NCBI RefSeq assembly: GCF_000372725.1
Contig: NW_005201421.1
Coordinates: 124,001-188,000, forward strand
Origin: Emiliania huxleyi CCMP1516
Taxonomy: Eukaryota
Length of the DNA stretch: 64,000 bases
Direction: 5' to 3'
Position numbers and translations under genes: made by a program. The notes under the pieces are model-generated. The model did not search any database, was not told the DNA's origin, and saw only the letters and a list, made by a program, of their open reading frames with translations. Below are positions 14,373-60,576 of the stretch, piece by piece; the stretch's first letter is position 1, and each line of letters begins with the position of its first letter.

Positions 14373-15794
14373 ACCATGCACTGTTTCTGGAGGGGCACGC
14401 GGGTTCGATTTTGCCGCGCATTCGGTTGTGTAACACGGGTTATACGTTTGCTGGGGCTGTACTTGTGTGGGGCGCGCATGCACACTATTCACTATTCTTA
14501 CACTAATTCACCACCATGCTCAACGTGCATATAAAAAGTGATCTCTCGTGCTGTGCATCCAGTACGTGATGGCCGGGCTGCGGTCTGCAGCTGCGCAGGC
14601 GCGCAGCCAGGCCGGGTCCAAAATGGGGGTCGAATACTCGCTGCCCCCGGAGAGGGACGACGGGTATCGACGCGGCCCCAGCAAGGTGTACGCCACAGTT
14701 CCCCAGGGGACCGTGGCGACGACCGTCGCCTCGGACTGGCTCGCGAAAGAGCTGGCCGAGCACGGAGAGATCGATGCGGCATACCGCGACCGCATAGTCA
14801 TGCACCTGATGACGGCCGCCGGCGCCTCGGCGCCGGCCGACGCCGTGTTCAGGTTCACGGCTGGCGACGCGATGCAGACCGAGGACGACGACGAGGACGC
14901 TGACCGCTCCGAGGATTATTCCGACGACGGGAGGGCGTCCGACTTGTAGCTGGCCTCACCCATATCTTACCCTCTGCCCCCCCCTCCTGCTACCCCCCAG
15001 GCTAGATGGTCACAGATAGCCCCACACAGCCCCTTACCCCTTCACCCTCGCCTCGCTGCTTGGTGTTTCTGAACACGTAGACGACCACGCTGTGGGGGTT
15101 GTGTTATAGGAGTAGGAGTGGGGTGCAGGTTGCTCACCCACGGCACCGGGCCGGTGCTTGCACTTTGAATGCCGTGGGGCTCCTGCCCGTGTCCCGGGCG
15201 TGGAGATGCGAGGGTCGCCCCCCCTTGCCCCACCACTTTGTGTGTGTGGAGACGTTTACCTTACCTTACCTTACCTTATCTCTCGTGCTCGCCACCTCCT
15301 GCGTGTGGGTGTGCCGTTGGGGGTGCCGTGCTCACTCGTCCACGGTCGCGGAGCGGCGGGGCGCGGCGGGGCTGGGGGCTCTCACTCTCCGCGGGGGGGG
15401 GAGCGGGGAGGGTAGCTTATGGTCGTGTGTGTGTGTGTGACTCGACACACTCACACTCACTTATGGTCGTAACTGAGGTTTGCATGCCGGAGGTAAGGCC
15501 GACGGGCGGCAAGGGCAACAATACGCTGAAAATCTCATTCTCGGGCGGCCCCTTTTCTCCGAGCACCGAGGGAGGGCTGAGGAGTCTTCATGTCGCCGAG
15601 CTCGTACCTCGCTCCTCGACCGAGGAGAGGACGATGTCGACCGCGCGCTGAGCCGAGCTCGAGCAGGAGAGACCGGGTGCGGTGCGGTGTCAACCTCTCC
15701 AGGTGGGGAGCGGGAAGAGGCCGGCAAAACCTCCGCGAATTCTTTTTTCGAAGCTGGGAGGAGCCGCTCAGCATCCGCAACCCCGCCCGTTTGC

Positions 15795-18985: not shown

Positions 18986-19402
18986 CGCCCATCCTCGACT
19001 CCACCATTTCTCAGCGTCCGTCCTTAGAGTTGGACCGTCTCGACACGTGGTGGGTTCCAGAGCAGTCTGCTCGGTTTTCCAGTGTATGTAGTTAGGTATA
19101 TAGCTCTTCCTATTTTCTCTTCCTTTTGAGATTTTCATTTCTCTGCTCGCCAAGTTTAGGTGAGCCAAGTGAATTTCGTTTAGGTGAGCCAAGTGAATTT
19201 CGTTGAAATTTGAACCCTTAGAATCTTTCAACTCCAACTCTAAAAAAGAAACCCGAAATAACGGCTCATCCTTCATCGCGGCAAGGGGGGTCGGCAGATC
19301 CAAAGGAGGCGCGAGGGGGGTTAGTTTCGTCCGGTGCACTCTACCAAATGATCCGCCTCCCGTGGCGCGTTCCCTGGCAGTGCCTCTCTCCTTGAGTCCA
19401 GG

Positions 19403-21227: not shown

Positions 21228-22707
21228 TCACCCCGACACCACCCCCAGCATGCGCCGCACGAGGTGCGCCGCGCGCTCGCAGATTTCCACCCATACCGAC
21301 GTGGCGCCCGCCATCGACACGGCGTCCTCTTGCATGAGTCGCGCGGCGCCGAGCCGCAAGTCCGCAGCAGCGGCGCGGTCGGCGGTGTCGCGAAGCGCAG
21401 CGGGCGAGCTCAGCCAGTCCGGGAGCGGCGGCAGCGATGCACACGCGTGGCACTTGCAAAACACGTCCTGGCTCCCGCACGGCGCTGCCAGCTTGCGGGC
21501 CGTGTATGCGCTGGCGGCGCAGCTGGCCCAAGCCTATGTTCGCCGAGATTAGCCGAGGTGAGCGAGATTATGAGCGAGATTGAGGCGCACCCACCGCTCC
21601 GCCGACTTTGACCTGCGATTCCGGGTCGCAGCACTGCGCCGCAGTGACAAAGGCGTCGGCCGCCGCGCTGAACTCGCCGAGTGCCGCCCGCGCGTTGCCG
21701 AGGTCGCCCCATCCCAGAGGGATGGCGGGCGCCAGCTCGGTGGCCCGCTCGAACAGCTCTGCAGCGGCCGCGTACCCGCTCCGCCGGCTCTGGCTCTGGC
21801 CTCGCTCGCAGAGGTCGAGGTACCGGATCGAGCCTGCCCGCGAGAGCACCTCCGTGTCGAGCTGTGCGAGGTGCGGCTTGCTCTGCTCTGTCAGGACGCG
21901 ATCAAACGAGCCGTCCGAGACGATCTGCAACGCCTTGCAGTAGCTCTTCTCGGCAGTGGCATGGTCGCCGACGCCGGCGTGAGCCTCGCTGTGCAGGCGC
22001 CAAGCGACAATCGAGTCCGGATCGGCCTCCACCACATCCTCCGAGGTTTGACGCAGGCACTCGGGCGTCGCCATCCACGCGGGCAGGGGCGGTAGCCGGA
22101 GCTTGCACGCCGTACACGTCCCGAGCGAGCACTCTCCGCACCCCTTCATCGCCTGCTTGCGAGCCTGGAAGGCCCCGCACACGCTCGCCGCCCACGGCGG
22201 CGACGCCACCGGGCAGCGCTCCGCGCACGCGACAAAGCTCGCAAAGGCGCCCAAGCAGTCGCCTGAAGCCAGGCGCACCTCCGCCAAATCGCCCCAGGCA
22301 AGCGGGTTGGCCTGCTGGAGCTCGATTGCGCGCCGCAGCAGCACGTCCGCCTTGGCGTGGTGCCCGCGAGCGCTCTCGGCGCGGGCCTCCTTGCACAGCT
22401 TGGTGTAGCTGGCGGTCCGTGGCGACGGCGGCGCTGCCGCGTGCCCGAGAGAGCTCTGGATGCCTGCCTCCGTGCACAGCCTGCTGTGGCTGGCGGCCCG
22501 AGCCGGCGACGGCGACGGCGATCCACTGGCGGTGAGCCAGGCCTTTGGACCATTGCTCTCAATCAACTCGGCGTCCTCCGGGATTGATGCGACACGAGGC
22601 GGCGACCGAGGCGGCGAACGAGTCGGCTTGCCATCTCCACTCACGGCCTCAGCTACAAGCGCGAAGTCCGGCGGGTCGATGGCGGCTCGGCGGTAGAGCG
22701 GCTGCAT
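21228..22707 (-). CDS. TPR-repeat protein with duplicated Cys-rich module (2+ exons; intron about 21535-21612)
   Basis: TPR-like helices (RAIELQQANPLAWGDLAE; RATELAPAIPLGWGDLGNARAALGEF) and a repeated WA…C..C..LPPLP.W module. The start is uncertain. Confidence 0.65.
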
Positions 22708-23002
22708 CCGCCGTGACTCGTGACGAGGACTGATGGGGCGGTGAAGGTGCTTGTCGTGGTGCAGGCAGGACGATCCGCTTCAAAGGCAATGACTTCAGCT
22801 GGGTTCATGATGTCGTGAACAGGCTCCCCTGGGCTGGGCGCCGATGATGACGCGGCGGCGCACACACTGGAGGGTCAAGGAGTTGCCCAGGAACGATTTC
22901 CAAACGGCGACACCGTTTGATTGGGGGAGCACGAGGGATCTTCTCCTTCTTCGCGCGACTTTGTGGGTGAGAGCGAATGGGGCGCGGTTCACGCCAAACA
23001 AA

Positions 23003-23118
23003 CATTCGCTCTCACCTGGCAACCCTGTCTGCACGTCTCGCGCGCGCGTGAACAGGGCTCCAGGCCCCAAATGACGTGTGAGTGTTAGAGTTGTTTGGTA
23101 TTGCTAAAAATCTCTCTC
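23003..23118 (+). mobile_element. Very short 3' stub of RLE-type non-LTR retroelement family A
   Basis: Matches the 3' end of 50064-50516 (cattcgctctcacctggcaaccc…gctaaaaatctctctct). Flanked by TTCACGCC repeats. Confidence 0.8.
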
Positions 23119-23197
23119 TTCACGCCTCGCACAACAGAGTTTTGTTGTCGACTTTGTCGCTTGGGGGCCTCCTCTACCTCTTCCTAGTACATGTATT

Positions 23198-23400: not shown

Positions 23401-23438
23401 CAGAAACCCAAAGAAGACGGTAAATTCTTTTCTTCGCG

Positions 23439-24695
23439 ATGTCCACACCGCCGCGCCGCCGCTCGCGCCGCCTCGCCGCCGCCACCACCGCCGCCCCCTC
23501 GTCAGACGCGCCGCCGCCCGTCCGCTTGCTCGATCTCCCCAGGGAGCTCCTCGAGCGCGCCCTCTCTCGCTGCGACAGCCCCATCGACATCGCTCGCGTC
23601 GCGGCCGTCTCGCTGCTCTTTCACTCGCTCGCGGAGCAGGGCATCCGCTTGTGGGCGCAGGAGCGCGGCTTCGAGCTTCCGGCGCAGCCAGAGGGCGAGA
23701 GCTGCGCCGTGCGGTGGCTGTGCTATTCTGCGCTGCTGCGCGAGTCCAACCCGCCGGCGAGGGCTGCGGCAGGCCTTCATCACAGCGTCTTCATCGACGG
23801 CGAGGGGCGGCTCTCGTCGTGCGGCTCGGCGGATGGCGTGCCAGCCCTCCTCGGTCACGGCGAGGGCGTGACGCGGCTCAACACGCCGACCCGCCTCCCC
23901 CTTCTGGGTGGCGAGCGCGCCGTGAGCGTGTCGGCTGGAATGTGCCACAGCCTCGCCCTGACCGCTGACGCCGTCTGGAGCTGGGGCGGTGGACTCTTTG
24001 GCAAGCTGGGCCACGGCGACCAGCAGGCCCAGTGGCAGCCGAAGAAGGTCGAGGCCTTTGCTGGCCAGCGTGTCGTCGCTGCGTCGGCTGGAGGATACCA
24101 CAGCCTCGCCCTCACCGCCGACGGCTCCGTCTGGAGCTGGGGCGGTGGACTCTTTGGCAAGCTGGGCCACGGCGGCTATCTGGACCACTGGCTGCCCAAG
24201 AAGGTCGAGGCCTTTGCTGGCCAGCGCGTCGTCGCTGTCTCGGCAGGAGGCGACCACAGCCTCGCACTCTCAGCCGGCGGCGCCGTCTGGAGCTGGGGCT
24301 ATGGATTTTACGGCCAGCTGGGCCACGGCGGCTATCTGGACCACTGGCTGCCCAAGAAGGTCGAGGCCTTTGCTGGGCAGTGCATCGTCGCTGTCTCGGC
24401 TGGAGACGACCACAGCCTCGCCCTCACCGCCGACGGCGCCGTCTGGAGCTGGGGCCTTGGAGGCGATGGCCGGCTGGGCCACGGTGACGAGCAGCGCCAG
24501 CTCCTGCCGAAGAAGGTCGAGGCCTTGGCTGACCAGCACGTCGTCGCTGTGTCGGCTGGACGCAGCCACAGCCTCTCCATCACCGCCAGCGGCGCCGTCT
24601 TTACTTGGGGCAAGGGCGAAGCGGGGGGGGCAGGCAACGGAGAGGACCTGCCGAACCAACTGCTGCCCACGAAGATCGAGGCGCGGGAGCCGTAG
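23439..24695 (+). CDS. F-box-like + RCC1-repeat protein
   Basis: N-terminal LLDLPRELLERAL (F-box-like). Repeated VSAGxxHSLALTADGxVWSWGxGxxGxLGHG RCC1 blades. Intronless. Confidence 0.88.
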   Translation: MSTPPRRRSRRLAAATTAAPSSDAPPPVRLLDLPRELLERALSRCDSPIDIARVAAVSLLFHSLAEQGIRLWAQERGFELPAQPEGESCAVRWLCYSALLRESNPPARAAAGLHHSVFIDGEGRLSSCGSADGVPALLGHGEGVTRLNTPTRLPLLGGERAVSVSAGMCHSLALTADAVWSWGGGLFGKLGHGDQQAQWQPKKVEAFAGQRVVAASAGGYHSLALTADGSVWSWGGGLFGKLGHGGYLDHWLPKKVEAFAGQRVVAVSAGGDHSLALSAGGAVWSWGYGFYGQLGHGGYLDHWLPKKVEAFAGQCIVAVSAGDDHSLALTADGAVWSWGLGGDGRLGHGDEQRQLLPKKVEALADQHVVAVSAGRSHSLSITASGAVFTWGKGEAGGAGNGEDLPNQLLPTKIEAREP

Positions 24696-35254: not shown

Positions 35255-37249
35255 TCAACTTTCTCTCTCCAGGGAAGGCAGCGTAGTACCTGCAACGCTC
35301 GTCACCGTTTGCTTGGGCACAAACCTGCCCTTGTCCCCGCGTTCGCGACTTGTCGCAATGGCTTTCCGCGAGCCGGGTCCGCCTGAAGTGCTGGGGCGGG
35401 CCTCCGCGCCGCGCTGGATCAGCAAGTCGACCACCCGCTCCTGGCCGTTGACAGCGGCGACCATCAGCGCGGTGCCGCCGTCGCTGTTCTGCAGGTCGAC
35501 CTCCGCGCCTCGCCGCAGCAGCAGCTCGACCACCCGCACTTGGCCTTGGTGGGCGGCAGCCGCCAGCGTGGTCCAGCCGTTGCTGTTCTGCTGGTCGATC
35601 GCCGCGCCGCGCTGAAGCAGCAGCTCGACCACCCGCTCGTGGCCGCTGGCAGCGGCGGCACCTAGCGGGGTCTCACCGCCTAGCTTGCAAGAAGCATTGA
35701 CCCGCCCGCCGCTTTCGAGCCACGCCAGCAGCGCCGCCTCGTCGCCTCGCCCGGCCGCGGCCACCGCCGCTGTAACGCTGCCCAGCTCCCTGCCCAGCTC
35801 CCTGCCCAGCTCTGTAAGGCTGCCCAGCTCCGCCTCTGTAAAGCTGGAAGAGACCGCTTCGCCCGAGGAAGCGCTGCCTGCGCCGCCCGCCGCCGCCTCG
35901 CGCTGTCTCGCAGTCACCTCCGCGATGTGCTGCCGGAAGGCGGCGACGCACGCGATGTGGCCCTGCTCCCTGGCCATCTGCAGCGCGGACTTGCCGTCCG
36001 TAGTGCGCAACTTCGTATCCGCGCCCGCCCGCAGCAATTGGAGCACGACGAGGAGCTGGTCGGAGTAGGCGGCGACCATCAGCGCGGTGCCGCCGTCGCT
36101 GTTCTGCTTGTTGATCTCCGCGCCGCGCTGCAGTAGCAGCTCGACCACCCGCACTTGGCCTAGGCCGGCGGCGGCCGTCAGCGCGGTCTGGCCGGCGTTG
36201 TTCTGCAGGTCGACCTCCGCGCCGCGCTGGATCAGTACGTCAACGACCCGCTCGTGGCCGTTGCCAGCGGCGATTTGCAGCAACGTGAAACCCGCACTAT
36301 CGAACGCGTTCACCTGCCCTCCGCTGTTGAGCCACGCCAGCAGCGCCGCCTCCTCGCCTCGCGCAGCCGCTTGCCTGGCCTCTTCGGGAAGGCTGCCCAG
36401 TGAGCCGGAAAAGGGCGCGCCCGCCGCCTCGCCCGAAGGAGGCGCACCCGGCGCCGCCCGGGACCGCCCGGGCCGGCCCGGGCCGGCCCGCGGCCGCCTG
36501 AGTCTGCCCGGGCCCGGCCGGGCCGCCCCGGACCGGCCCGGGACGGCCGGGGACCGNNNNNNNNNNNNNNNNNNNNNNNNNNNNNNNNNNNNNNNNNNNN
36601 NNNNNNNNNNNNNNNNNNNNNNNNNNNNNNNNNNNNNNNNNNNNNNNNNNNNNNNNATAGGGCGCGCCCGCCGCCTCGCCCGAGGGAGCGCCACCCGCGG
36701 GCGCCCGCGCCGCCCGCGCCGCCCGCGCCGCCCGGGCCGCCCGCGCCGCCCGCGCCGCCCGCGCCGCCCGCGCACGCCCGCGACGACCGCGCCGTCCGCC
36801 GCCGCCTCGGGCTGTCTCGAAGTCACCTCCACAACGTGCTGCCGGAAGGCGGCGACGCACGCGGCGTGGCCCTGCTTCTTGGCCAGCTGCAGCGCGGACT
36901 TGCCGTCCGTAGTGCGCAACTTCGTATCCGCGCCCGCCCGTAGCAAGCGGAGCACGACGGCGGGGTGGCCGTTGCGGGCGGCGAACACCAGCGCAGTCTG
37001 CTTAGTGCTGTTCTGCTTGTTGACCTCCGCGCCACGCTGGATCAGCAAGTCGACTACCCGCTCCTGGCCGCTGCGGGCGGCGAACATCAGCGCGGTGACG
37101 CCGCTCACACCGCCTTTCCTGCAAGTCGCGTTGACCTTCCCGCCGCTGTCGAGCCACGCCAGCAGCGCCGCCTCCTCGCCTCGCCCAGCCGCTTGAAATG
37201 CCGCTTCGGGAAGGCTGTCGGTCTCCGGCACGATCGTTGCTAGCGCCAT
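35255..37249 (-). CDS. Ankyrin-repeat protein (three modules), spans an N gap, 3' end apparently truncated
   Basis: Ankyrin motifs in each module, which begins AAxRGxEAALLAWLxSGG. The last repeat stops at LIQRGAE and runs into unrelated sequence near 35400. Confidence 0.75.
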   Translation of the reverse strand: MALATIVPETDSLPEAAFQAAGRGEEAALLAWLDSGGKVNATCRKGGVSGVTALMFAARSGQERVVDLLIQRGAEVNKQNSTKQTALVFAARNGHPAVVLRLLRAGADTKLRTTDGKSALQLAKKQGHAACVAAFRQHVVEVTSRQPEAAADGAVVAGVRGRRGRRGRRGRPGRRGRRGRRGRPRVALPRARRRARPXXXXXXXXXXXXXXXXXXXXXXXXXXXXXXXXXXRSPAVPGRSGAARPGPGRLRRPRAGPGRPGRSRAAPGAPPSGEAAGAPFSGSLGSLPEEARQAAARGEEAALLAWLNSGGQVNAFDSAGFTLLQIAAGNGHERVVDVLIQRGAEVDLQNNAGQTALTAAAGLGQVRVVELLLQRGAEINKQNSDGGTALMVAAYSDQLLVVLQLLRAGADTKLRTTDGKSALQMAREQGHIACVAAFRQHIAEVTARQREAAAGGAGSASSGEAVSSSFTEAELGSLTELGRELGRELGSVTAAVAAAGRGDEAALLAWLESGGRVNASCKLGGETPLGAAAASGHERVVELLLQRGAAIDQQNSNGWTTLAAAAHQGQVRVVELLLRRGAEVDLQNSDGGTALMVAAVNGQERVVDLLIQRGAEARPSTSGGPGSRKAIATSRERGDKGRFVPKQTVTSVAGTTLPSLERES

Positions 37250-37292
37250 TGGCACCGTAAACTTTTTCAGTACCGTCGGGTACTTATTTTAA

Positions 37293-37726: not shown

Positions 37727-39202
37727 AGACACAGATTCAAGGACGAGGACACGACACAGGACGCACCTCTAGTGAGGCCCGCATAGTAATGTGGGTGACT
37801 CCTGCCGCCGCCCCTGCCACCCCTGTGTCAGTGTGCCTGTGGTAGTGAGAGACTGCCGAAGCTGGAGGCAGGTCACTAGACTGAGATGAGACCGCCAGTG
37901 GAGTTGGGAGCCCACCGTGCACCGCGCTGCGAGCCTGTCGTGTCCCTTGTGCTTGTCAGGAGCAGGAGAGCCCCACCTGTCCCCCTGATCGTCCTTCCAA
38001 AATCCTGCTCGTGCAGGTGGGGACCCTGTCCTCCTCCCCCATCCCTCGTCTGGGTTTGTCTGTTTTCTTTCTTTCTTTCTTCTCTGAAGCTGAGAGAGAT
38101 TTTTAAAGACCAACAAGAGAAGGCAGACGCCGTCGGTCAACCCGTCATGCGGCTTGCTTTGGCTCGCCGCCACCGCGGTGGCTCACCAAGGACTTTTCAG
38201 CGTGCTGCGTCATCACCGCGCGGCGCGCAAGCCACGCCTCACCCGGGCAAAAAGAACGACCGCGCGCCGCCGCCGCCCGCCTCGCCGCGCCGCGCCGCCC
38301 CGCGCCTCGCCTCGCCTTGCAGCAGCGCATGCGCACACGCACCCACGCGCCCGCGCTCGCTCCGCGAGAGCGAAGCAACCCTCCAAGCGAGTTCCGAACC
38401 GGGAGCCAAAAAGGTCCCGGCTCGAACCGCGAACCGGTTCGACCACCGCCGCTGGCGGTTCTTGCAAAGGCATCAAAGGCAGTGCTTGATATAACGTAAA
38501 ATAGTGCGAGCGCGCGAGATACTCACCCGACCCACCGTGCCCTCGCGAAAAAGATCTCGCGCCGCGCGCGCTCGCACACGCCGCCCGAGAGCACTCCCAC
38601 CCCCGCCGCCTCGCAAGCTCACAGGTTGATTTGAGGAGAAGCAGCTGGGGGAGGTCAAAGCGGGAGAAGGCGGCACGGCGGCGGCGGCGCGGCCCCCCCC
38701 CATCCCCACGCCTCCGGGTCGTGCGTACCGCCTCCGGGCGCGAGTGTCCCCCCAGCGTCTGCTCTGGCAGTCGCTCCGGTAATCAGGCCGAGAGTACCAG
38801 GGAGGAGGGGAGAAGAGCCCAGGGTGGGGAGAGGAGAAGAGCCCAGGGAGGGGGGAGGAGAAGAGCCCAAGACGGCCTCCCTCTCCCTCCCCTCCCACCG
38901 GGCCTCCCTCTCCCTCTCCTCCCACCGGGCCTCCCTCTCCCCCTCCTCCCGCCAAGCACCGACAGTCTCGAGGGGCCAGCCGCTGGAAGGGGCAAGCCAG
39001 CGGCACGAGGGCTTCAGCCACACAGCTACCATGGGAACGCGACCCACACAAAGCACCAAAGTTAGGCATACCCCCCGGCGCAGTGTCCCCCGCTATGTGT
39101 CGCCGTTTGTCGGGGCACGCTATCCTGTGTAGTCAGGGCAAGTGGGGGCGGGGTGGACAGCCCATCGTCTTTACGTTGGGACCTCTCTGCCCAGTCCGGG
39201 GG

Positions 39203-40131
39203 TAGGTCGGTCGGAATCCCCCAAAACAATTAAATTCCCTCTCGAGCGGAGAGAATTTGGGATTCGACTCCCGCGCAATCAAGTCATCAACGATGGTGCC
39301 AACGGCCAAAAAAGCGCCGGTAGCAAGCACGATGGAGGTGCGTCTTTCCCATGCTCGCGCGCCCCCCGCGCGCGAACTATGCATGGGCCCGGCTCGCCCG
39401 CTTGGGGATCCACCCGGCACACCCCCGCCCCCCACCTGCCGGCTTACCTGCCGTCAGTTCGCGCGGGATCGCCCACAACTGTCAGCAACTGAAATCCAGT
39501 TGCTTCAGCTGTGACTTCAGCCTCGCCTCACCGCTCTCCCTTCGGTCGCACGCCTCCGGAGAGAGGTCGCACACGACGCTGGTGACCATTCCCGACGAGC
39601 CATGCGCAGGTCGCGACCCCTGAGGACCTCCACACCTCCAAGGAGAAGCTCCGCGGCATCGGCGAGGCGACCGCTCTCTTTTCAGAACCTGCTAGGGCAG
39701 AGGCCCTGTCCACCCTGGCGTCCCTCGAGGGGTCGCCAGGGCCCGCCGCGGCCCTGGCGAGGCCCGTGGGCGGCCTGCTCCTCATCGACGCCTACGCCCT
39801 CGTCGGCCTGGCCGGCAAATATGCCAGCGGCGGGGGCGGCGCCGGCGATGCGGGTCTCATCTTTACCAGGTGGGTCGAGGCGATGGCCGGGCACGAGTCG
39901 CTCGCGCCGACGCGGGCGCTCCCGGCGCTGGCCACGCCGGAGACCAAGGCGAACTTCGTGAAGTACAAGCGCCGGATGACCGCGTACAAGGCGGACGTGG
40001 AGCGCGCGCTTAAGCGGCGCTCGACGGCCGTTTCTCGCCGGAAGGACCCGGCGGAGGCCGACCGCGAACTCGACCAACTCGTGCGGCAGGCGCACGTTCC
40101 TCTCCAGACCCTTTCGGACGCGGCCGACACG

Positions 40132-40163
<32 letters not shown>

Positions 40164-43100
40164 GTCCTCGCTCGATGCCGAGCTCGACGTGACGGCGCAG
40201 CTGCGCGCGTTTGCCGAGGGTTTGCACCCGCGCCTCGGCGCCGACAGCGCCGTCCACCTCTTGGAGGGCTGCCGCGACGTCCTCGGCTTGATCGCCGCCG
40301 AGGTGCGCGGCGCGCCTCCGCCGCGTGGGCGCGGCACGTCGCAGCTCCGGCAGGTGTCGCTGCTCCTCAACTATGAGCGGCGGCGGCGGCAGCTGAGCGA
40401 GGCGCTCGCCGACGAGCGGCGTGTCGAGCTCGAGCTGGCGGCGCGCCGCCAGCAGGCCGCCGTCGACGCCGCGCTCGCCGACGAGCGGCGGCGCTCCGCC
40501 GCGGCGTACGCGAAGCTCGACGCAGCGCTGCAGGCGGAGCGGCAGGAGACTGGGCGGCTCTGCACGGAGGTGCGGCGGCTCAAGGCGGCGGCGCGCGAGG
40601 CCGAGACTGCGGCGGAGCTGCGGTGCCGCAGCCAGGAGAAGGAGGCCGCGGCGCACTTTGGCTCCATCGCCTCAGAGGCCGAGCGGCGCGCCAAGGTCGC
40701 CGAGGCGCAGCGGGACGACGCGTGTGAGGAGGCGGCGCAGCTGCACGGCCTCTTCGCGCAGCTAGAGGACCAGCTCGACGCGCTGCGCTCGATGCGCGTC
40801 TCGGGGCTGCTCGAGCAGCTGCAGGCGAGCACGCGGCGCATCACCGAGCTCAGTGCGCGGCGCAAGGTGACGCAGCGCAAGCTCTCCGACGTGAACCTCG
40901 TCGAGCGCAACCTGGCGGTGTCGCAGCGGCTGCTCTCGGAGGAGCGGGCGGCCCACGCGAGCTTGTGGCGCGGAGACGCGACGGCAGAGAAGCTGGAGGC
41001 GGTGGAGGCGCAGTGCGCCAAGCTGCAGGCCGAGCTTGAGGCGGCGCAGGCCGAGGCCGCAAAGTTCAAGGCCATCGCCGAGCCCACCAAGGCGCGCTTC
41101 AAGCTGGGCAACCACTTCAACGCCGAGACGGAGCTTGCGTGCATCTCGGTGATGCACCTCGGCATCGCGCGGCAGAAGATCCCGAAGCTGTTCCCGATCT
41201 TCGCGCGGCTCTTGGGGGTCAAGCTGCCGTACCGCGAGATCAAGGTCCCCGGCCCGATCGTGGACGGCAAGCGCACCTCCGTCGTCAAGCGGCTGCCAGA
41301 GACGCCGCAGGCGACGCACTGCAAGGAGCTGGCGGGCGTCTCCTACGAGCTCAACAAGCTCCAGGTCGGCCAGTGGCTGCTGGAGTTCATGAACTCGGAT
41401 GAGTCCTCGTGCTGCTACATCGCCGACGGCGCCGAGGCGCAGCAGATGGAGCGCATCGGCACCGTCCTCTCGCGGCGCGTCAACGGCAAACTCGAGCTGC
41501 GCGCCCTCGATTTGTCGACGGCCTCGAGCAAGACCGCCGAGGCGCAGGCGTCGGCGTACCACGAGTCGATCGAGGAGGTCATCAAGCTCATGGAGGAGGC
41601 CGGCCTCGCGGATGCGCGCGCGGCGGAGCTGCTGCGCCGCTTCCTCCCCACGTGCGCGTGCAACGACCGGGCGTCTACGGCGCGGCTCGCTGCGCGGCTG
41701 GTCCTCGGGCTGGGCGAGGGCGACGACGACCCGACCTGTGCGGAGCACGCGCTCGTCAACATCCTCGAGGAGGGGCGCAAGGCGATGGACGCCATCCTGC
41801 GCGAGCTGATGAACTTCACCGACGAGCAGGCCGCGGCGCACGCCGACAAGATCAAGGCGATGCGGACCTGCGTCGGCTGGTTCAGCTCGCCTGTCTGCGC
41901 GCTCATCTACCAGGCACCGTCAGCCCCGACCCCGCACCGCAGATCACTCCCACTCGCGCGCCAATCCCGCACCCCCCCGCGCCGCACGCGTAGGTGAGCA
42001 AGTACGTCGCGCTCTGCTCGACCAAGGGCTACGCCATCGGCCGCAAGCTGCAGGAGTGGATGGAGGCGCGGCTGGCAGACCTCGAGGAGCAGCTCGAGCA
42101 TCTCGTGGGGCACGTGGAGGACGTGCTCGCGATCTGCGGCTCGCGCGCGTACGTCTTCTACCTCGACGCGGCGCCGACGGAGCGGCTGCTCACTGAGCAC
42201 GACATCTCCATGCTGACCTACCTCGACGAGGATGAGATGCTCAAGGCTGCCGGCGGCGGCAAGCTGCGCAAGTCTATCCTCACCGGCGCGCGCTCGCCGC
42301 CCTGCATGGCGGGGGTGCGCGCCATGGCGCTGATCTGCGACGCGGTGTTTTGGCCGCTGATCCGCGCGGTCAAGCCAGCCGCGGACAAGCACGTCCTCGA
42401 CGTGCTCCCGCGCGTGTGGCCGGCGGCGCACGCGTTTTTTGAGGCGGCCGCCGCGTCGCCCGCGGGCATCGTCGACGGCTCGCTCAAGCTGCAGCTCGGC
42501 GACGTTTCGGCGGCCGCCACCGCCGCTACCGCGCCAACTCCAACGCAGGCGCGCCGCGCCGAGCGCCATCGCCTCGATATGGTGCGCATTCGCGCCGCAG
42601 CGGCCGACGACCCGATGGTGACGCGCTTGCTGACGGCGGCATTCGGCGCGATGTCCCGGGCGGTCTGCAACCACGCTGCGGAGTGGATGCCGGCGGGCCT
42701 CGTCGCCACGAACGGCTCGATCACCAAGACCGGCAAGCTGTGCTCGGCGAACATCACCCCGGCGCTGCGCGCAAAGTACGACGCGCTGCAGGCGACGAGC
42801 ACGCCGGTTGAGCGGCTGCACGCCGTCGGCCGCGTCAGCGACGACCGGCACAAGCGGCAGCGCAATGAGTCGCGCGCCGGCGACTCGCTCGGGCGCTTTA
42901 ACAACCAAGCCGGCTGGCTGACGGGCGAGATCGATGAGCGCGGCGGGCTCAAGGTCGCCGAGACCATGCTTGCGGCGTGCCGAAAGGCGGCGGGGCGGGC
43001 GAGACGCGTTACGCTCAAGGCGCAGCTGGTCGCGGCGGGCCGCGCAAAGCGCGCCGAGCGCGACGAGAAGCTGGGCAGCAAGAAGGCGCGCAAGGCGGCC

Positions 43101-43457
43101 AAGGCGGCCGAGAACGCGCGCATCGCGCAGCTGCCGCTCGTGCGGCGCTACTCAGAGCTGAAGAAGCTGGCGATCGCCGGCTTGCAGGCGCTTCTCGGAC
43201 GCTGTTGAGCGGTATACTAGTGCCCCACTACTCACGGCTCTCGTTTGTTGTAGGACCAGCTCAAGGCCTTCAAGCTGGCGGGGAAGACGGGCTTCACTGT
43301 CACGCAGGCGAACCGCGCGGACTATTGCACGCAGCTGCAGAACCTCCTCTTCGCCGCGCATGGCGTCGAGGCGAACGACCTCGAGGACGGCGACTCGGGG
43401 TGCGACGGCGACGGCGTGGTGCGGAAGGTGCGGCAGCGGCGCGTGGCGGGCGAAGAG

Positions 43458-43489
<32 letters not shown>

Positions 43490-44116
43490 GAAGAAGAAGA
43501 AGAGGAAGAGGGTCGATCTGCGTGAGCTCAACGGCTGGCAGTGGGAGGCGAGTGAGAAGTTTGACATCGAGCGCATTCTCGACAGCAAGGTGGAGACGGT
43601 CGGCAAGGTGCTTGCGCCCTCACACTCGCACCTGCCCTTGCTTATTGCCACTCCATCGCTCACGTGCCCGACCACCTCTCTTCTCGCCTCACAGGGCAAG
43701 AAGCGGGTCGAGATGACGTACTACTTGATCCTCTGGAAGGGGTACCCGCCGGACGTGTCGACGTGGGAGCCAGAGTCAGAGATACACGACGACTTGATCG
43801 ACGCGTACGAGGCGGAGCTCGATGCGGCGTCTGAGCTGGAGGCGGAGGAGGCGGAGGAGGGCGAGGAGGGCGAGGAGGAGTGACTAGCGCGCGTCCTCCG
43901 CCCCCGTGCGCGTGTGTTGAGGTGGTGCGAGAGCCATTTGCGTGCGTGAGCGGTGCGGCCGGGTGTGTGAATGTGAACCGTGGGCCACTTGTGTTGAGGG
44001 ATGGCAACCCATGTGGGTGCCTATGTGTTTCTTTCGAGCTAACGCACCTTGTTTTGCAGTTTCTATGCCGTGCTATTCACTTCCAAAAATCGACCCCCGG
44101 GACCCCGACCGACCTA
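39203..44116 (+). mobile_element. Apparently autonomous DDE DNA transposon, 4,914 bp
   Basis: TIRs taggtcggtcggaatccc (39203-39220) and gggaccccgaccgaccta (44099-44116), 16/18 match. TSD CCGGGGG at 39196-39202 and 44117-44123. Encloses one transposase gene. Confidence 0.85.
39293..43883 (+). CDS. hAT-like DDE transposase with long N-terminal coiled coil and C-terminal chromodomain (5 exons)
   Basis: Predicted exons 39293-39337, 39610-41913, 41994-43187, 43254-43607 and 43695-43883. Motifs YIADG (D1), SKTAEA, CNDRAS (D2), CAEHALVN (CxxH) and ATSTPVERL (E). Chromodomain FDIERILDSK…YYLILWKGYPPDVSTWEPESEI. Confidence 0.8.
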
Positions 44117-44459
44117 CCGGGGGTGCGTCGAACCTTCCATCACCCTGTCGGAAGCGGCGTGCCGGTGGAGGCACGTCCGGGTTTTGGAAGTAAAGATATA
44201 TTACTTTTTTAAAGACCAACAAGAAATCACGACTCTCACAGTGATTTGGGCTCGGCAGCTTGTTAGCCCTCAGCCGAAGCTGGGGCCGGTCCGTAGCCGA
44301 GAGATCTGAAGCTGTGTCGCGCTGCAGGCCTGCCTGCAGCTCGCGGCGGCGGATGAGATCGCGACCGAGTCCGGCTCGCCACGGCGCCGGAGGACGCCGC
44401 CGTCGCGTAGACTCCCTTGCGTTACTACGTGCTTGCCCATGTTTGTAGCCTGACGTTTG

Positions 44460-44934
44460 AGAGAGAGAGAGATTTTTAGCAATACCAAACAACTCTAACA
44501 CTCACACGTCATTTGGGGCCTGGAGCCCTGTTCACGCGCGCGCGAGACGTGCAGACAGGGTTGCCAGGTGAGAGCGAATGGCGCGGTTCACGCCTCGCAC
44601 AACAGAGAGAGAGATGCGCTCTGCATGGTGGGACATAAAAGAGAGCGAGTACTTGGGCGAGTAGGCCGTGCGGTCGACGCTGCCGCGCGCGACTTTGCGC
44701 GCGAGGCGGCGCAGCTTGAGAACGGCGGTGGGCGAGAAGCCGCCGCCGAACGTCTCGTGGAGCAGCAGGTTGAAGTTGTTGCGCTTGACAAAGATCGCGT
44801 CGTGGTAGAAACCGCGATGCGCCTTGACGTAGCCGTGGCCGTTCTTGTGGTCGAAGGGTTGGCCGGGTTGCCCGCGCGCCTTGCAGCCCATGTTTAGGCG
44901 GCGGGCCTTCTCTTCGGTGTTGCCGAGGTTTTGT
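44460..44934 (-). mobile_element. 5'-truncated RLE-type non-LTR retroelement, family A
   Basis: Encodes LGNTEEKARRL…LLHETFGGGFSP…AERISLSVVRG and has a (CT)n tail. TSD TGACGTTTG at 44451-44459 and 44935-44943. Confidence 0.8.
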
Positions 44935-50063: not shown

Positions 50064-50516
50064 AAAAAGAGAAGGCCCGCCGCCTAAACATGGGCTGCAA
50101 GGCGCGCGGGCAACCCGGCCAACCCTTCGACCACAAGAACGGCCACGGCTACGTCAAGGCGCATCGCGGTTTCTACCACGACGCGATCTTTGTCAAGCGC
50201 AACAACTTCAACCTGCTGCTCCACGAGACGTTCGGCGGCGGCTTCTCGCCCACCGCCGTTCTCAAGCTGCGCCGCCTCGCGCGCAAAGTCGCGCGCGGCA
50301 GCGTCGACCGCACGGCCTACTCGCCCAAGTACTCGCTCTCTTTTATGTCCCACCATGCAGAGCGCATCTCTCTCTCTGTTGTGCGAGGCGTGAACCGCGC
50401 CATTCGCTCTCACCTGGCAACCCTGTCTGCACGTCTCGCGCGCGCGTGAACAGGGCTCCAGGCCCCAAATGACGTGTGAGTGTTAGAGTTGTTTGGTATT
50501 GCTAAAAATCTCTCTC
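50064..50516 (+). mobile_element. 5'-truncated RLE-type non-LTR retroelement, family A
   Basis: Same 119-aa translation as the 44460-44934 copy and a (CT)n tail. TSD TAAACCTAAAA at 50053-50063 and 50517-50527. Confidence 0.85.
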
Positions 50517-50542
50517 TAAACCTAAAACTGTGCTAGAACGGG

Positions 50543-50651: not shown

Positions 50652-50816
50652 CTAGAACGGGGCCCGGGGTTGTGCGCGCATGTGTAATTTTCGAGGGACC
50701 TCGGTGTTGCCGCGACTCCCAGAGGCTCACCGCCTCGCTTGGCAACCTTCACACATCCCACTTTCAGGTACAACACGGACGCTCGTTCAGTGAGCTTCGC
50801 GTTCACTCTGTGCGAA

Positions 50817-51647
50817 ATGGCGTTCCGGATTCCGACGCAGAACGACGTCCCATCCACCGGCTTCTGGGGCGCCGCGACTGCCGTGCACCAATTCTGCGAA
50901 CCAAAGTACAAGACCTCTCACTACGTCGCCGAGTTCTACAACTCGCTCTCATCCTTTGTCTACGTCTTTGCCGCCGTGTACGTGCTCTCGCGGCGTGAAG
51001 CGCGCGCAGACCCGATGATTGTCATAAATGCACTGGCCGTGACGATTATCGGCCTCGGCTCGGTCGCCTTCCACGGCACGATGCTCTTCGAGTTTGAGCT
51101 GTGCGACGAGGTTCCGATGCTCGTCTACATCTCGCTCGCGATGCTCAACAAGTTGGGCTGCCACCCGATGCTCCTCACGCGAGCGCGCTGCGTCGTGTTT
51201 GCGAGCCTCGTCGTCAGCGCGTGCGCGCTGACCATCGCCGTCTACGCCAAGTACGCCGTGTACGAGTTCTTTGTCGCCTCGTTCACCGCGCTCGTGCTGC
51301 TCGACACGGCGCTCGCGCTGACGTGGCGCAGCAAGCAGCGCGTGACGACCTGGGCAGTCTACATGTCGATGGCGTGCATCCTGCTCGGCAAGATCCTGTG
51401 GGAGTGCGAGGTCCGCCTCTGCTCGACCGACGGGCGCGTCTGGCCGCTGCACGTGGTCTGGCACGCGCTCTCGTGCGCGGCGGCCTACTACGGCCTGCTC
51501 GCCGACATGGCGGCGCGCATCGACTGCGGCCTCTCGCCGGCGGTCGCGGGCGGGGAGACCAAGGTGGCGCTCCGGTGGGCGGCCGTGCCATTCTCCGAGG
51601 TGCACGTCGTGTGCGCGGCCGAGGAGGAGGGCAGCAAGGCGCGGTGA
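50817..51647 (+). CDS. Alkaline ceramidase (CREST superfamily, ACER3-like)
   Basis: Motifs GFWG…FCEPKY…YVAEFYNSLSS, GLGSVAFHGTM, DEVPM and LHVVWH. Multiple TM segments. Intronless. Confidence 0.9.
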   Translation: MAFRIPTQNDVPSTGFWGAATAVHQFCEPKYKTSHYVAEFYNSLSSFVYVFAAVYVLSRREARADPMIVINALAVTIIGLGSVAFHGTMLFEFELCDEVPMLVYISLAMLNKLGCHPMLLTRARCVVFASLVVSACALTIAVYAKYAVYEFFVASFTALVLLDTALALTWRSKQRVTTWAVYMSMACILLGKILWECEVRLCSTDGRVWPLHVVWHALSCAAAYYGLLADMAARIDCGLSPAVAGGETKVALRWAAVPFSEVHVVCAAEEEGSKAR

Positions 51648-56820: not shown

Positions 56821-59653
56821 TTAGTCGCGCTCGAAAGCGGCGAGCTCGTCAGGCGTCGGCATGGCGATTCCGTCGAGCCCGAGGTTACCCAGGCAATACC
56901 GCGCCTTGATTTGCCCGCAGCAGATGCCATCCTGCATGCACTCGACGTCCCAGCAGCGCTGCCAGGCGACACCGCTCTGCAGGTCGACCGTGATCATCGT
57001 CTTGTTGGACATGTGCGCCGCGCCCTTGTGGAAGCAGAAACGGGTGCCCCGCGCGGTCAGGTGCAGCAGCCGCTCCGACGGGTTCCCGGCGCGCACGTAC
57101 GTCCACATCTCGACGCTGCAGCCGGGCGCAGCTCCGGGCCAGCTTGCGAACTTGGCCGCGGCCCAGGCAGCCACCTTGTCCAGCGGCGACGGCGGCGCGC
57201 CTTTGCCCTTTCGCGTGGACTCGAGGAAGGGGTGCGGCACCTTTGGCCAGTCGCGCAGTGGGGCGTCCGTCACCTGATCGTACTTGGCGCACCACTCTCT
57301 CAAACTAGCGCCATCGGCGTTCCTGCCGCCGCCGCCGCCGTCACGGCTGCCGGCGCCACCGCCACCGCCGTCACGGCTGCCGGCGCCTCCACCGGCGGGC
57401 AAGCTTGCGGGGGGGCGACGGGGCGCTGCGGGGGCGTCGCGCGGCAGCTCGAGCGTCGCCCAAGCGCGCGGGCCGTCGGCGAGCCCGCCGCCCGCCGCGG
57501 CGCACGGCGCGAGCTCCGGGTTGACGAGGGAGAGGCGCAGCTGCGCGGAGAGAGGTAGGGACGAGGGCCGGCTGCCGAGCAGTCCGGGCAGGCTGGTCGC
57601 GCCGTCGGACAGCGTGAGCACGGCAGTCGACCCGAGCTTGGACGAGCCCACCAGCCGGAAGGCGCGGTTGCACGAGTAGACCGACTTGTCGACGAAGCAT
57701 GCCACGCCGCCGCCGCCGCGCCTGTCGACGTCCAGCTGCTGGCCGAGCCGAGCGATCACCGCCTTGGCGACGCGCCCCGCCTGCTCCTGGCTGGCGAGCA
57801 GCAGCGGCACGCGCGCTCCGGACGGCAGGAGCAGGTGCGGGCGGAGGATGGCGTGGCGCGACCACTTGTCGACGCGGTGCGAGTCGAGGGCAACCACCTC
57901 GACCTCGAGCCTGCCCTCGGCGACGGCGCGCCGGGCCAGCGCGGCGTCGGCGCCGTGCAGCTCGACTGCCTGCTCGGCTTCGGAGAGCGCCTCCTCGAGG
58001 ATGGCGATGGCCGTATCGACCACGAGGGTGCTCAGCCGCTCGCCGTCGACCGCCAGGTTGAGAGTCGCGCTGCGCACGAACTCGAGGTCAAAGTAGACCC
58101 AGCACGGCAGCGCGGCGTCGATCACCTCGTACGCGTTGCGGCTCGCGGGGGGCAAGCCCTCGTACAACGCAGCAAAGACGGGGGCGCTCGCAGCGACGTA
58201 CGCCTTTGGCGCGCCGCCGCCGCCTCTGCTCGGCAAGTCGAACGCCCACGCACGCGACGCGCCGCTGCGGTCCTCCTTGATCTCGCTGCGGCACGCGTCG
58301 AGCCTCTTGTGGATGCTCGCCGACGATCCGCGCGCCGCCTCGGCCCACATGTCTGCGGGGTCGGAGGAGGCCGGCGGCGGCGCCTGCCGCTGTGGCGGCG
58401 GCTGCGCCCGCTGCTTGCGGCGAGCCGCGAGCTGCTGCCGCGGCTGCACCTCCGCCGCCGCCGCCGCGATGCTCTCGAGCTGGGGCCTGGCTCCAGAGCC
58501 GTGGCCGATCTGCGGGTACGGGTGCCCGAGGCCGCACGCAGGACACAGGTCGGAAAACGAGAGCCGGTCCTCGCCGCCGCTCGCTCCTCGTGAGAGATGG
58601 TCGGCGCCGCCGCACGGGCAGTACCAGTCGTTGTGCAACGAGACCTGACAGAAAGGCAGCCCGCCGTACGCAAAGGCAGCGGCTGCATCCTGGAGCACGC
58701 CGGGGCCCTCAATGAAGGCCTCGAAGCAGCGGTTCAACCCCTTGGGCGCGACCGCCACGATCGTTGCCATTGGCAGCAGGTAGCGCAGCTCGCGCTCGAG
58801 GGCGGGCGGGTCACAGAGAGGGTGAACAAACCGGCCGCCGCCAAGCCAGAGCTGCAGCCGCTCCACCGACTGCGGCTGCGGCGGGCGGAAGACGGGGCGC
58901 GGCTGCGGCGGCGGCGGCGGGCCGCCGTGCACGCCGCCGCCGCCGAACGCGCCACCCCCGCCGCCGTAGCCGCCTCCGTAGCCGCCGCCGTGCACGCCGC
59001 CGCCGCCGAACGCGCCGCCCCCGCCGCCGTAGCCGCCTCCGTAGCCGCCGCCGTGCATGCCGCCGCCGCCGAACGCGCCGCCCCCGCCGCCGTAGCCGCC
59101 TCCGTAGCCGCCGCCGTGCATGCCGCCGCCGCCGAACACGCCGCCGCCGCCGAACACGCGTGGCGGCGCCTGCGGCTGCGGTGCGCGGGGGCGGCGGCGA
59201 GACGCCGCCTCCGCAGCCGCTGCGATGGAGCTTGGCAGCCCCGAGCCGCACTCTGGGCACACGTCGTCGTCGCCCCGGAGCGCAGCGCCGCCGCACGGAC
59301 AGTACCACGTCTTGTTGCTCAGGGTGACCTGGCAGAAGGGCAGGCCCGCGGTGTTGCGAGCAAAGACAGCGGCTGCTTGCTGGAGCACGCCGCGGCCCTC
59401 GAGGAAGGCCTCGAAGCAGCCAGTCCGACCGAACGGTGTCACATGCACCGTGGTTGCGCAAGGCAGCACCTGGCGCAGCTCGCTCTCGAGGGCGCGCGGG
59501 TCGCAGAGGGGCGAAGTGCTGCCGCCGCCGAGAAAGAGCTGCAGCCGCTCGGCCGACGGAGCCGCCGGCGGCGGGCGCCGCCAGCCACCGCCACCCTCGT
59601 CCGCGCGCCCGCCGCCGCCGCCGCCGCCGCCCTCGGCCTCCGGCGGGCGCTTC

Positions 59654-59729
<76 letters not shown>

Positions 59730-60162
59730 GGCCGTCGTACTCGCGCCGCTTTTTCGAGTCGGAGAGCGTCTCGTGCGCCTCGTTGAGCTTCTTGAACGCC
59801 GCCTCCGCGCCGCCCGCCTTGTTCTTGTCGGGGTGCACCTCGAGCGCTAGCCGCTTGTACTTTTGCTTCGGCGCCGACGGGTCCGCGCTGACGGCTTCGG
59901 GGGTAAGGCCGAGCACCGCGTAGTGGTCGGAGGCCTCTAGGATGCGCTCGACCGCCTTGGCCCACTTTGTGCCAGGCCTGAACTCGATCAGGTCGTCCAG
60001 CGATTTGAGGAGCGCCTGCGCAGCGTTGGTCGGGTTCATGCGCTCACTCTTCTCGGCAAAGCGCTTCGCGCCGTCGAGATCGCCAGCGGCCAGCTTCCCC
60101 TGGGCGCGGCGCAGCGCCAGCGCCGCCTGCTCGGGGTCGAGGTTTGGCCCCAGGTTCTCCAT
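56821..60162 (-). CDS. J-domain / duplicated RRM-like+Zn-finger / Gly-rich / PrimPol (AEP + UL52-type Zn finger) fusion
   Basis: J domain DHYAVLG…YKRLALEVHPDKN…AFKKLNEAHETLSD. AEP motifs YEVI…VYFDLEF, KWSRHAI and FVDKSVYSCNRAFRLVGSSK. Zn finger RFC…H.SN…QRCWD.EC. One uninterrupted ORF. Confidence 0.85.
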
Positions 60163-60342
60163 CCTCGGGTGGTGGTTCCTCGGGTCGTCGTGGTGGTTCT
60201 GCGACCACTGCTCGCTCAAGCAGGTCGAGAAAAAATAATCTCCGATCCCTCCCTTCATTTGTCCCTTTTTTTTTTCCCTCGAGAGCCGGAAAAAGAGAAA
60301 AAGAAAACCCCGCTCGCAAGCCTCGCCGACACCCTTTACCGC

Positions 60343-60576
60343 GAGACAGAGGAGGAAGTGACAAGGGAGAGACCGACGAGAGTGGGACGGCCGCGAGGTG
60401 GCATGAAGGTTGCAGCGAGAAGCGGCGAGAGACTGCGAAAAGAGATACGAAGAGGCAGACTCCCCAGGGTGGGCGACGGCTAGCGCATCACACTCCTCTC
60501 CTTAAAATCCCTGTGTGGTGGCGGCGTGCCGTTCTCCCATCCCTCCCTTGGGTTGTGTGTTTTCTTTCTTTCTTTT
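60343..60576 (+). mobile_element. 5'-truncated retroelement family B with (TTTC)n tail
   Basis: ORF remnant ending RVGDG*, then a 3' UTR and tail. TSD ACCCTTTACCGC at 60331-60342 and 60577-60588. Confidence 0.8.

What the first reader, a model, noticed from the sequence alone, without database searches (positions are those of the whole stretch)
39203..44116. Intact-looking DNA transposon whose hAT-like transposase is fused to a chromodomain, with a 7-bp TSD
Seen in the sequence: 18-bp TIRs starting TAGG, a perfect CCGGGGG duplication on both sides, and one 5-exon gene with no apparent stops. The protein has a long coiled coil, a DDE core (IADG / NDRAS / CAEH / ATSTPVER), a basic NLS-like patch and a C-terminal chromodomain with aromatic-cage residues (F…W.GY). 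Established knowledge: CxxH plus ATS..ER is typical of hAT-related transposases, which usually make 8-bp TSDs, and chromodomain targeting is best known from chromovirus integrases. Inference: a divergent cut-and-paste family that may read histone methylation to pick target sites or regulate itself.
Basis: partly seen in the sequence, partly recalled or inferred. Interest (0 to 1): 0.85.

Follow-up and report, generated by a model that had tools for sequence, protein, structure and literature searches.

The report
Chromodomain-bearing hAT transposon of haptophyte algae
This is an intact, transcribed jumping gene of a marine alga whose cutting enzyme, predicted to be of the hAT type, ends in a chromodomain shared by dozens of distant relatives and likely used to grip methylated histones, within a group that is probably already catalogued as hATv.

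Summary
39203-44116 has 18-bp TIRs (16/18 alike) and an exact 7-bp duplication. A 98.8% identical copy ends at the same base with another flank, which fixes the ends at TAGG. RNA contigs confirm introns 2-4. Predicted exon 1 has no RNA support, so the N-terminus is unsettled. A relative's model matches Hermes best (Z 13.9, next 8.7), and D/D/E, CxxH and W are near-invariant. There is no BED finger; a long predicted coiled coil stands in its place. The family is large (590 clusters at 50% identity), its named hosts are haptophytes, and it keeps an intact-cage chromodomain down to about 30% identity, once in a single transcript ORF. The odd 7-bp TSD is already in print: the Tisochrysis element Shanks (Repbase subgroup hATv, which includes E. 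huxleyi elements) has 7-bp TSDs, a TIR core 9/10 alike and ORFs of 793+580 aa, against 783+578 here. Protein homology to Shanks could not be tested. What I found undescribed is the spliced, BED-less, chromodomain-tailed architecture. Its role in target choice is untested.

The parts
39196..39202 (.). left copy of the 7-bp target site duplication
39203..39220 (+). left TIR, 18 bp, starts TAGG
39293..39337 (+). predicted exon 1 (15 codons); same as the JGI ab initio model, but not seen in RNA contigs; start of the gene unsettled
39610..41913 (+). exon 2 (aa 16-783 of the model): N-terminal helices, coiled coil, first half of the RNase H-like core
40213..40293 (+). short N-terminal motif (AxGxH...L..D[VLM][LF]..I) kept in several full-length relatives; role unknown
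   Evidence: no Pfam match at E<=10
40339..41079 (+). about 250 aa of long helices, predicted coiled coil; no BED finger before the core
41425..41427 (+). D621, predicted first catalytic Asp (on strand 1 in the relative's model)
   Evidence: 64 of 65 aligned relatives
41665..41667 (+). D701, predicted second catalytic Asp
   Evidence: 66 of 66
41737..41748 (+). CxxH motif (C725, H728) at the start of the helical insertion
   Evidence: 65 of 68 and 67 of 69
41878..41880 (+). W772, candidate equivalent of the conserved hAT/MULE Trp
   Evidence: 65 of 65; equivalence inferred from spacing
41914..41993 (+). intron 2, GC-AG, 80 nt
   Evidence: RNA joint; 11 of 15 loci with the motif read straight through this point
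41994..43187 (+). exon 3 (aa 784-1181): helical insertion, catalytic Glu, basic helix
42810..42812 (+). E1056, predicted catalytic Glu in TSTPVER
   Evidence: 56 of 57
43188..43253 (+). intron 3, GC-AG, 66 nt
   Evidence: RNA joint with 190-196 letters on the short side
43254..43607 (+). exon 4 (aa 1182-1299): linker, Gly run, basic NLS-like patch (43491-43511), first chromodomain strand with cage F1284
43608..43694 (+). intron 4, GT-AG, 87 nt, in frame, splits the chromodomain
   Evidence: RNA joint
43695..43883 (+). exon 5 (aa 1300-1361): rest of the chromodomain (cage W1313, Y1316), acidic tail, stop
44099..44116 (-). right TIR
44117..44123 (.). right copy of the 7-bp target site duplication

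Best explanation
A 4914-bp, transcribed and spliced DNA transposon of a haptophyte, probably of the hATv subgroup, whose single transposase is predicted to cut and paste like Hermes and likely uses its C-terminal chromodomain to tether itself to methylated nucleosomes and so bias where it lands. Shown: TIRs, the 7-bp duplication, a near-identical copy at another site, splicing of introns 2-4, conserved D/D/E, CxxH and W, a chromodomain in the same chain across the family, and no BED finger. Predicted: RNase H-like core with an all-helical insertion closest to Hermes, and a coiled coil that would multimerise the enzyme. Inferred from hAT chemistry: excision through hairpins on the flanking DNA and insertion at a 7-bp stagger. 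Inferred and untested: binding of H3K9- or H3K27-methylated tails, steering insertions into repressed, repeat-rich chromatin as in chromodomain retrotransposons. My odds by step: hAT-type autonomous transposon with a fused chromodomain 0.93; hATv member 0.8; methyl-lysine reader 0.8; target choice is its main job 0.5.
For: Foldseek: the first 11 rows are all Hermes (best E 5.5e-7), RAG1 follows at 8.5e-3. VIA-align: Hermes Z 13.9, rmsd 5.4, 355 aligned, next Z 8.7; chromodomain 7vrf Z 5.9, rmsd 1.4, 59 aligned (model of relative P0011, pLDDT 84.6). Residue conservation. Copy L013 at another flank, with 19 synonymous and 8 non-synonymous changes in 838 codons. Three E. huxleyi CCMP1516 gene models on three scaffolds fall in one 90% cluster. 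Transcript-derived 1302-aa ORFs P0180/P0181 (37% identical) hold D, D, CxxH, E and chromodomain in one frame. Chromodomain motif in 47 of 63 clusters (90%) long enough to hold it, down to 30% identity. Cage positions 1 and 3 are aromatic in 44 of 46 and 46 of 46 non-redundant members. Both other complete elements, L005 and L012, carry it inside their TIRs. Shanks TIR core, TSD and ORF sizes. Both flanks are covered far more deeply than the element in a DNA-like run, as expected of repeats.
Against: No binding or insertion-site data. The window holds many ordinary genes, so it is not plainly heterochromatic. Shanks ORFs gave no Pfam or HHpred hit, so Shanks may lack the chromodomain, and some of its new insertions lie near or in genes (that table was selected for gene proximity). 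The other two complete elements do not confirm 7 bp: L012 has an imperfect 7-9-bp match and L005 none. The fold is of a 55% identical stand-in, with a high Foldseek rmsd (17-21). No single RNA contig spans core and chromodomain in this copy; it breaks at the GGC run 43448-43516, which the tool skips. The start codon is unsettled, so the intactness of the N-terminus is not proven.
Confidence: 0.6

Rival explanations
1. Same transposon, but the chromodomain works at the donor: it would find and open the element's own silenced copies, partly replacing the missing BED finger, or damp its own activity, and does not bias targets.
For: No BED-like or CxxC pattern in aa 1-618 or in 20 relatives (only the stretch before the first regex match was read, short in some). 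BED is said to be needed for Hermes excision. Shanks TSDs show no clear consensus by eye.
Against: The direct precedent for a chromodomain on a DDE enzyme is target tethering in retrotransposons. No data on excision.
Confidence: 0.25
2. The chromodomain is not a histone reader here: it binds nucleic acid, or a methylated lysine of the transposase itself (the Lys-rich patch lies just upstream) or of another protein.
For: Chromodomains diverge faster than the core (mean identity 0.38 against 0.53). Some members score weakly (P0180 E 0.003), and the loop between strands varies in length.
Against: The cage is kept over 30-90% core identity, and the best solved matches are HP1 and CBX7.
Confidence: 0.1
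3. A domesticated host chromatin gene derived from a hAT, or a chance fusion of a host chromodomain gene with a dead element.
For: Spliced and transcribed, with an excess of synonymous changes.
Against: Intact TIRs and TSD, a 98.8% copy at another flank, chromodomain inside the TIRs of two distant elements, and chromodomain identity tracks core identity (rho 0.50, 0 of 999 permutations; this shows co-descent only).
Confidence: 0.05

Closest known systems
Repbase subgroup hATv; Tisochrysis lutea hAT/Shanks (PMC10138859)
   Same: Haptophyte hosts including E. huxleyi; 7-bp TSD (31 of 31 rows seen in S6 Data); non-identical TIRs whose first 10 bases match this element at 9; ORFs of 793+580 aa against 783+578 aa on either side of intron 2; no hAT Pfam hit.
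   Different: Shanks is 6.8 kb with TIRs described as 26 bp and is described as two ORFs with no predicted domain. Here it is one spliced gene with a clear chromodomain. Protein homology not testable; Repbase entries not seen.
Canonical hAT (Hermes; Ac and Buster groups)
   Same: Predicted RNase H-like core with helical insertion, D/D/E, CxxH, conserved W, short imperfect TIRs.
   Different: 7-bp and not 8-bp TSD; no BED finger; long predicted coiled coil; C-terminal chromodomain; about twice the length; no sequence-level match to PDB or to hAT Pfam families.
Fungal hAT7 (PMC12730594)
   Same: hAT with 7-bp TSD.
   Different: hAT7 clusters with the Ac/Tam3 group and some carry TET/JBP; no link to this family was tested.
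hAT-Chromo gene models in the sponge Ephydatia muelleri (bioRxiv 2021.11.30.470311, section 10)
   Same: hAT transposase domains fused to a chromodomain.
   Different: Described as restricted to one or few species, as gene models without TIR or TSD data in the text I read; here the fusion is family-wide and inside intact elements.
Chromodomain Gypsy integrases (chromoviruses, MAGGY; Ectocarpus lineages)
   Same: C-terminal chromodomain on a DDE enzyme; the precedent for targeting H3K9me chromatin.
   Different: Retrotransposons with no TIRs and another core architecture.

Membership tests
hAT superfamily | RNase H-like DDE core with all-helical insertion, most like Hermes | tested here: met
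   (model of relative P0011)
hAT superfamily | C/DxxH motif after the second Asp and a conserved Trp (shared with MULE) | tested here: met
   features from passages of PMC5499845 and PMC7780238; the Trp equivalence rests on spacing
hAT superfamily | short terminal inverted repeats | tested here: met
canonical hAT (Ac/Buster) | 8-bp TSD | tested here: not met
   7 bp here; exceptions of 5, 6 and 7 bp are accepted within hAT
canonical hAT (Ac/Buster) | N-terminal BED zinc finger | tested here: not met
   no BED-like or CxxC pattern in aa 1-618, no Pfam hit on exon 2, model all helical; feature
canonical hAT (Ac/Buster) | C-terminal hAT dimerisation domain (PF05699) | tested here: inconclusive
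   no Pfam hit, but the structural alignment runs to Hermes residue 609
hAT superfamily | excision through hairpins on the flanking DNA | not testable with these tools
   needs biochemistry
hATv (as described for Shanks) | 7-bp TSD | tested here: met
hATv (as described for Shanks) | TIR beginning TAGGGCGGTC | tested here: met
   9 of 10 for both window ends; 8-9 of 10 for 22 of 22 ends listed, which were partly chosen by a similar motif
hATv (as described for Shanks) | haptophyte host | tested here: met
   97% identical E. huxleyi protein; the other named host is Prymnesium polylepis
hATv (as described for Shanks) | transposase homologous to Repbase hATv entries | not testable with these tools
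   Repbase not held; supplement cells cut at 400 letters; 0 hits for 6 terms
canonical methyl-lysine-reading chromodomain | three-residue aromatic cage | tested here: met
   F1284, W1313, Y1316; (the W was part of the selection pattern); cage positions recalled from HP1
canonical methyl-lysine-reading chromodomain | binding to a methylated histone tail | not testable with these tools
   needs a peptide assay
MULE/IS256, P, Transib/RAG1 | closest fold among insertion-domain transposases | tested here: not met
   ISCth4 Z 8.1, P element Z 7.1, RAG1 Z 5.8 against Hermes Z 13.9
hATw, hATm, hATx, KDZ, Kolobok | sequence similarity to reference transposases | not tested
   no reference sequences held; that hATw makes 7-bp TSDs is recalled and was not found

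The most novel reading that the evidence does not exclude
An old, widespread lineage of algal cut-and-paste transposons that lost the BED finger and took on an HP1-like chromodomain which steers insertion into methylated heterochromatin: the DNA-transposon counterpart of chromoviruses, active today, and a natural chromatin-guided transposase.
Probability: 0.35. Interest if true: 0.75.

Novelty: new variant of a known kind. Interest (0 to 1): 0.5.

Why it matters
Chromatin-mark targeting is established for retrotransposon integrases. In the papers my ten searches reached, it is not shown for a cut-and-paste transposase. This family keeps an intact reader across 30-99% identity and has young, expressed copies in a cultured model alga. 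A probable relative (Shanks) has 1,429 annotated copies and mapped new insertions, so the question can be tested with existing genomes plus ChIP data. The result also supplies a fold, a spliced gene model and catalytic residues for a group whose ORFs were reported as unclassifiable, and suggests that many haptophyte 'chromo domain-containing proteins' are transposases.

Tried and rejected
No whole genome is held, so no genome-wide TIR or TSD table could be made. Presence or absence at this site in other strains stays open. One DNA-like run has a contig joining 39197 to 44120, one base more than a clean empty site and with only 21 letters on its short side: weak, not counted. No relatives in viral contigs (0 of 49 candidates) or prokaryote genomes (0 of 27). 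Four IMG/VR TIR-pattern hits have 48% GC and no homology: chance. Profile search of PDB sequences with the core: 0 hits. ESM Atlas: best hits are unnamed eukaryotic clusters (0.95, 0.91, 0.90), and named hAT clusters score only 0.77-0.79, leads only. The idea that elements cluster next to one another was dropped: the loose TIR motif has 28 hits in 37 loci against a shuffle mean of 17.6 and maximum of 28. Only ends at or within 7 nt of a homology breakpoint, or with an inverted partner, are trusted (19 of 20; L016 has the motif only). An F-box reading of the N-terminal motif got no support (low pLDDT). No clear subterminal repeat. The 5-bp and 3-bp TSD registers were rejected. An alternative start at ATG 39602 with an intron 39610-39695 would be in frame, but no RNA joint shows it. 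No complex prediction was run, because methylated peptides cannot be modelled.
Full report
Boundaries. The element runs 39203-44116 (4914 bp). Its TIRs match at 16 of 18 bases and CCGGGGG flanks both ends. Because that duplication starts CC and ends GG, the window alone also allows a 5-bp or 3-bp duplication with longer TIRs. Metagenome locus L013 settles it: it is 98.8% identical over 2982 bases, stops exactly at 44116 and goes on with another flank. Of 20 family ends in the loci, none has GG outside TAGG. So the ends are TAGG...CCTA, the duplication here is 7 bp, and a near-identical copy sits at another site. The two other complete elements do not add a clean TSD: L012 (4706 bp, TIR 14/14) has an imperfect 7-9-bp match and L005 (5076 bp, TIR 13/14) none. 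Collapsed assembly or decay could explain this, but it is not support.

Gene. Five exons give 1361 aa with no internal stop; introns 2 and 3 are GC-AG. RNA contigs from two samples of one study skip introns 2 (80 nt, short side 27 letters, a retained form also present), 3 (66 nt) and 4 (87 nt). Of 15 loci with the motif before intron 2, 11 read straight through it, which confirms the junction independently. Exon 1 is not supported: RNA depth there is 0.76 and 0, and contigs run unspliced from 39487/39498, across an in-frame stop at 39583. Coding bias in the main frame is strong from about 39700 (GC3 0.97), upstream of the first in-frame ATG at 39883. The start is therefore unsettled. The JGI model uses the same exon 1, but that is a prediction.

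Host and family. The best hit is an E. huxleyi CCMP1516 protein at 97%. Its 90% cluster holds three gene models on three scaffolds, which may include alleles. A chromodomain-free profile finds 590 clusters at 50% identity with E<=0.001 and 221 proteins in the 90% collection. Named hosts are E. huxleyi and Prymnesium polylepis; most records are unnamed. No relative was found in viral contigs or prokaryote genomes.

Enzyme. Pfam finds no transposase family in the window's ORFs, none among the 25 of 33 families listed for 90 relatives, and PDB sequences give 0 hits. A model of relative P0011 (956 aa, 55% identical over exon 3, 90-row alignment, pLDDT 84.6) shows three strands, a helix, a short fourth strand, a long helical insertion and a helix bearing the Glu. 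Foldseek's first 11 rows are all Hermes (best E 5.5e-7), then RAG1 at 8.5e-3. VIA-align gives Hermes Z 13.9 (rmsd 5.4, 355 aligned), then integrases at 8.7, ISCth4 8.1, P element 7.1 and RAG1 5.8. D621 (64 of 65), D701 (66 of 66), C725 (65 of 68), H728 (67 of 69), W772 (65 of 65) and E1056 (56 of 57) are near-invariant. C/DxxH and the Trp are described for hAT and MULE, which cut through hairpins on the flanking DNA (passages of PMC5499845 and PMC7780238). No BED pattern precedes the core, although hAT transposases are said all to have one (passages of bioRxiv 2022.09.16.508221). Residues 244-490 of exon 2 fold as long helices with mostly high pLDDT, read as a coiled coil; the rest of the N-terminus is unresolved and matches nothing.

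Chromodomain. Pfam E 2.9e-12; the best solved matches are CBX7 and HP1. In this copy one RNA contig links exon 3 to exon 4 and another links exon 4 to exon 5 and the end; they break at a GGC run that the tool skips. In a relative the link is direct: transcript-derived ORFs P0180/P0181 (1302 aa, 37% identical) hold the core motifs and the chromodomain in one frame. Of 101 clusters covering the catalytic Glu, 63 are long enough; 47 match a chromodomain pattern, down to 30% identity. By eye 5 of the 16 misses are chromodomains that the pattern missed, and most of the rest run into an intron or frameshift. In 46 non-redundant members the first cage position is aromatic in 44 and the third in 46 (the middle W was part of the pattern). 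Chromodomain identity follows core identity (rho 0.50, 0 of 999 permutations), which fits one old acquisition but shows nothing about function. L005 and L012 carry it inside their TIRs. The residue before the first cage position is mostly acidic (31 of 42), as I recall for HP1 rather than Polycomb; this copy has Lys there, so it is a weak pointer to H3K9me.

Mechanism. I commit to a Hermes-like cut-and-paste enzyme with a 7-bp target stagger, a coiled coil that would multimerise it, and a chromodomain that would tether it to methylated nucleosomes and bias insertion toward repressed, repeat-rich DNA. The last step rests on the intact cage and on the retrotransposon precedent. Local evidence is thin: the flanks look repetitive, but the window is gene-bearing and a clustering test failed its control. 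A role at silenced donor copies is the main rival.

What is known. PMC10138859 (passages; sections 2.4 and Supporting information whole; S5 Data whole; S6 Data parts 1, 33 and 35 of 37; a term search of 8 files; S4 Fig and S2 Data not readable) describes the active T. lutea element Shanks: 6.8 kb, non-identical TIRs, 7-bp TSDs, ORFs of 793 and 580 aa with no Pfam or HHpred hit. Repbase placed it in hATv, 16 elements of three haptophytes including E. huxleyi. All 31 rows I saw of 81 have 7-bp TSDs. Its first 10 TIR bases match both ends here at 9, and the ORF sizes match the two halves of this gene around intron 2 (783 and 578 aa). Membership is likely but untested at protein level, and this family may already be in Repbase, which I could not see. 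It is the only paper in the library with hATv, transposon and Repbase together. Fungal hAT7 also makes 7-bp TSDs (passages of PMC12730594). hAT-Chromo gene models were noted in a sponge (bioRxiv 2021.11.30.470311, passages and section 10; its supplementary table of fusions was closed and may list E. huxleyi). GingerRoot lacks a chromodomain and the Ectocarpus cases are Gypsy (passages). PMC5963040, PMC8721813, PMC12905397 and PMC12477314 were read as passages and added only context. Searches showed no description of a chromodomain in this group. Earlier notes of this scan list other DNA transposons with chromodomains (unchecked) and none for this sequence.

Verdict. A real, young, expressed hAT-type transposon, probably hATv. 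The 7-bp TSD is known. The family-wide chromodomain, the missing BED finger, the single spliced gene and the Hermes fold are what I did not find described. Interest 0.5.

Noticed in passing
window 44464-44914 and 50067-50517 (opposite strands); 23003-23119: A 451-bp stretch is repeated exactly in inverted orientation, and its last 117 bp occur a third time. It encodes the end of an ORF with a PF..ETFGG motif and ends in a GA run, which I recall as the 3' end of a restriction-like-endonuclease LINE: likely truncated young LINE copies, not TIRs.
   Followed up: partly
window 38700-39150 and 44206-44480: Both flanks are covered tens to thousands of times more deeply than the element, with many loose ends: high-copy repeats. 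The left one is also present in RNA contigs.
   Followed up: no
window 39317-39828: A DNA-like run holds a diverged (about 90%) relative of the element's 5' part, and depth rises at 39291-39487: possibly non-autonomous derivatives or a sister family.
   Followed up: no
window 39602-39961: A 119-codon ORF in another frame starts at the first ATG inside the RNA-covered region and overlaps the transposase frame; it could be a uORF or mark a different first exon.
   Followed up: partly
window 40213-40293: Short motif AxGxH...L..D[VLM][LF]..I conserved in several full-length relatives amid a variable N-terminus; it looks F-box-like by recall, with no support from Pfam or the fold search.
   Followed up: partly
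window 11277-17822 and 35258-37288: Three long paralogous ankyrin-repeat ORFs; also a Zn2Cys6 cluster (19352-20797), TPR (21571-22779), F-box plus RCC1 (23424-24692), ceramidase (50688-51644) and a DnaJ-domain ORF with a weak primase-like hit (56824-60501).
   Followed up: no
L033-L044, L025, L027, L031: A sister family with internally deleted copies that keep a chromodomain-coding remnant and the right TIR; several loci hold more than one end.
   Followed up: partly
L019 1-6700 and L042 2960-5670: A long tandem array with a unit of about 51 bp lies upstream of family sequences in two loci.
   Followed up: no
P0015, P0068: Two relatives carry a further conserved segment behind the chromodomain.
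   Followed up: no
ESM Atlas hits for P0002 and P0011: The nearest clusters are unnamed eukaryotic proteins with basidiomycete, chordate and mollusc members (0.95, 0.91, 0.90): a lead to related unnamed hAT lineages outside algae.
   Followed up: no
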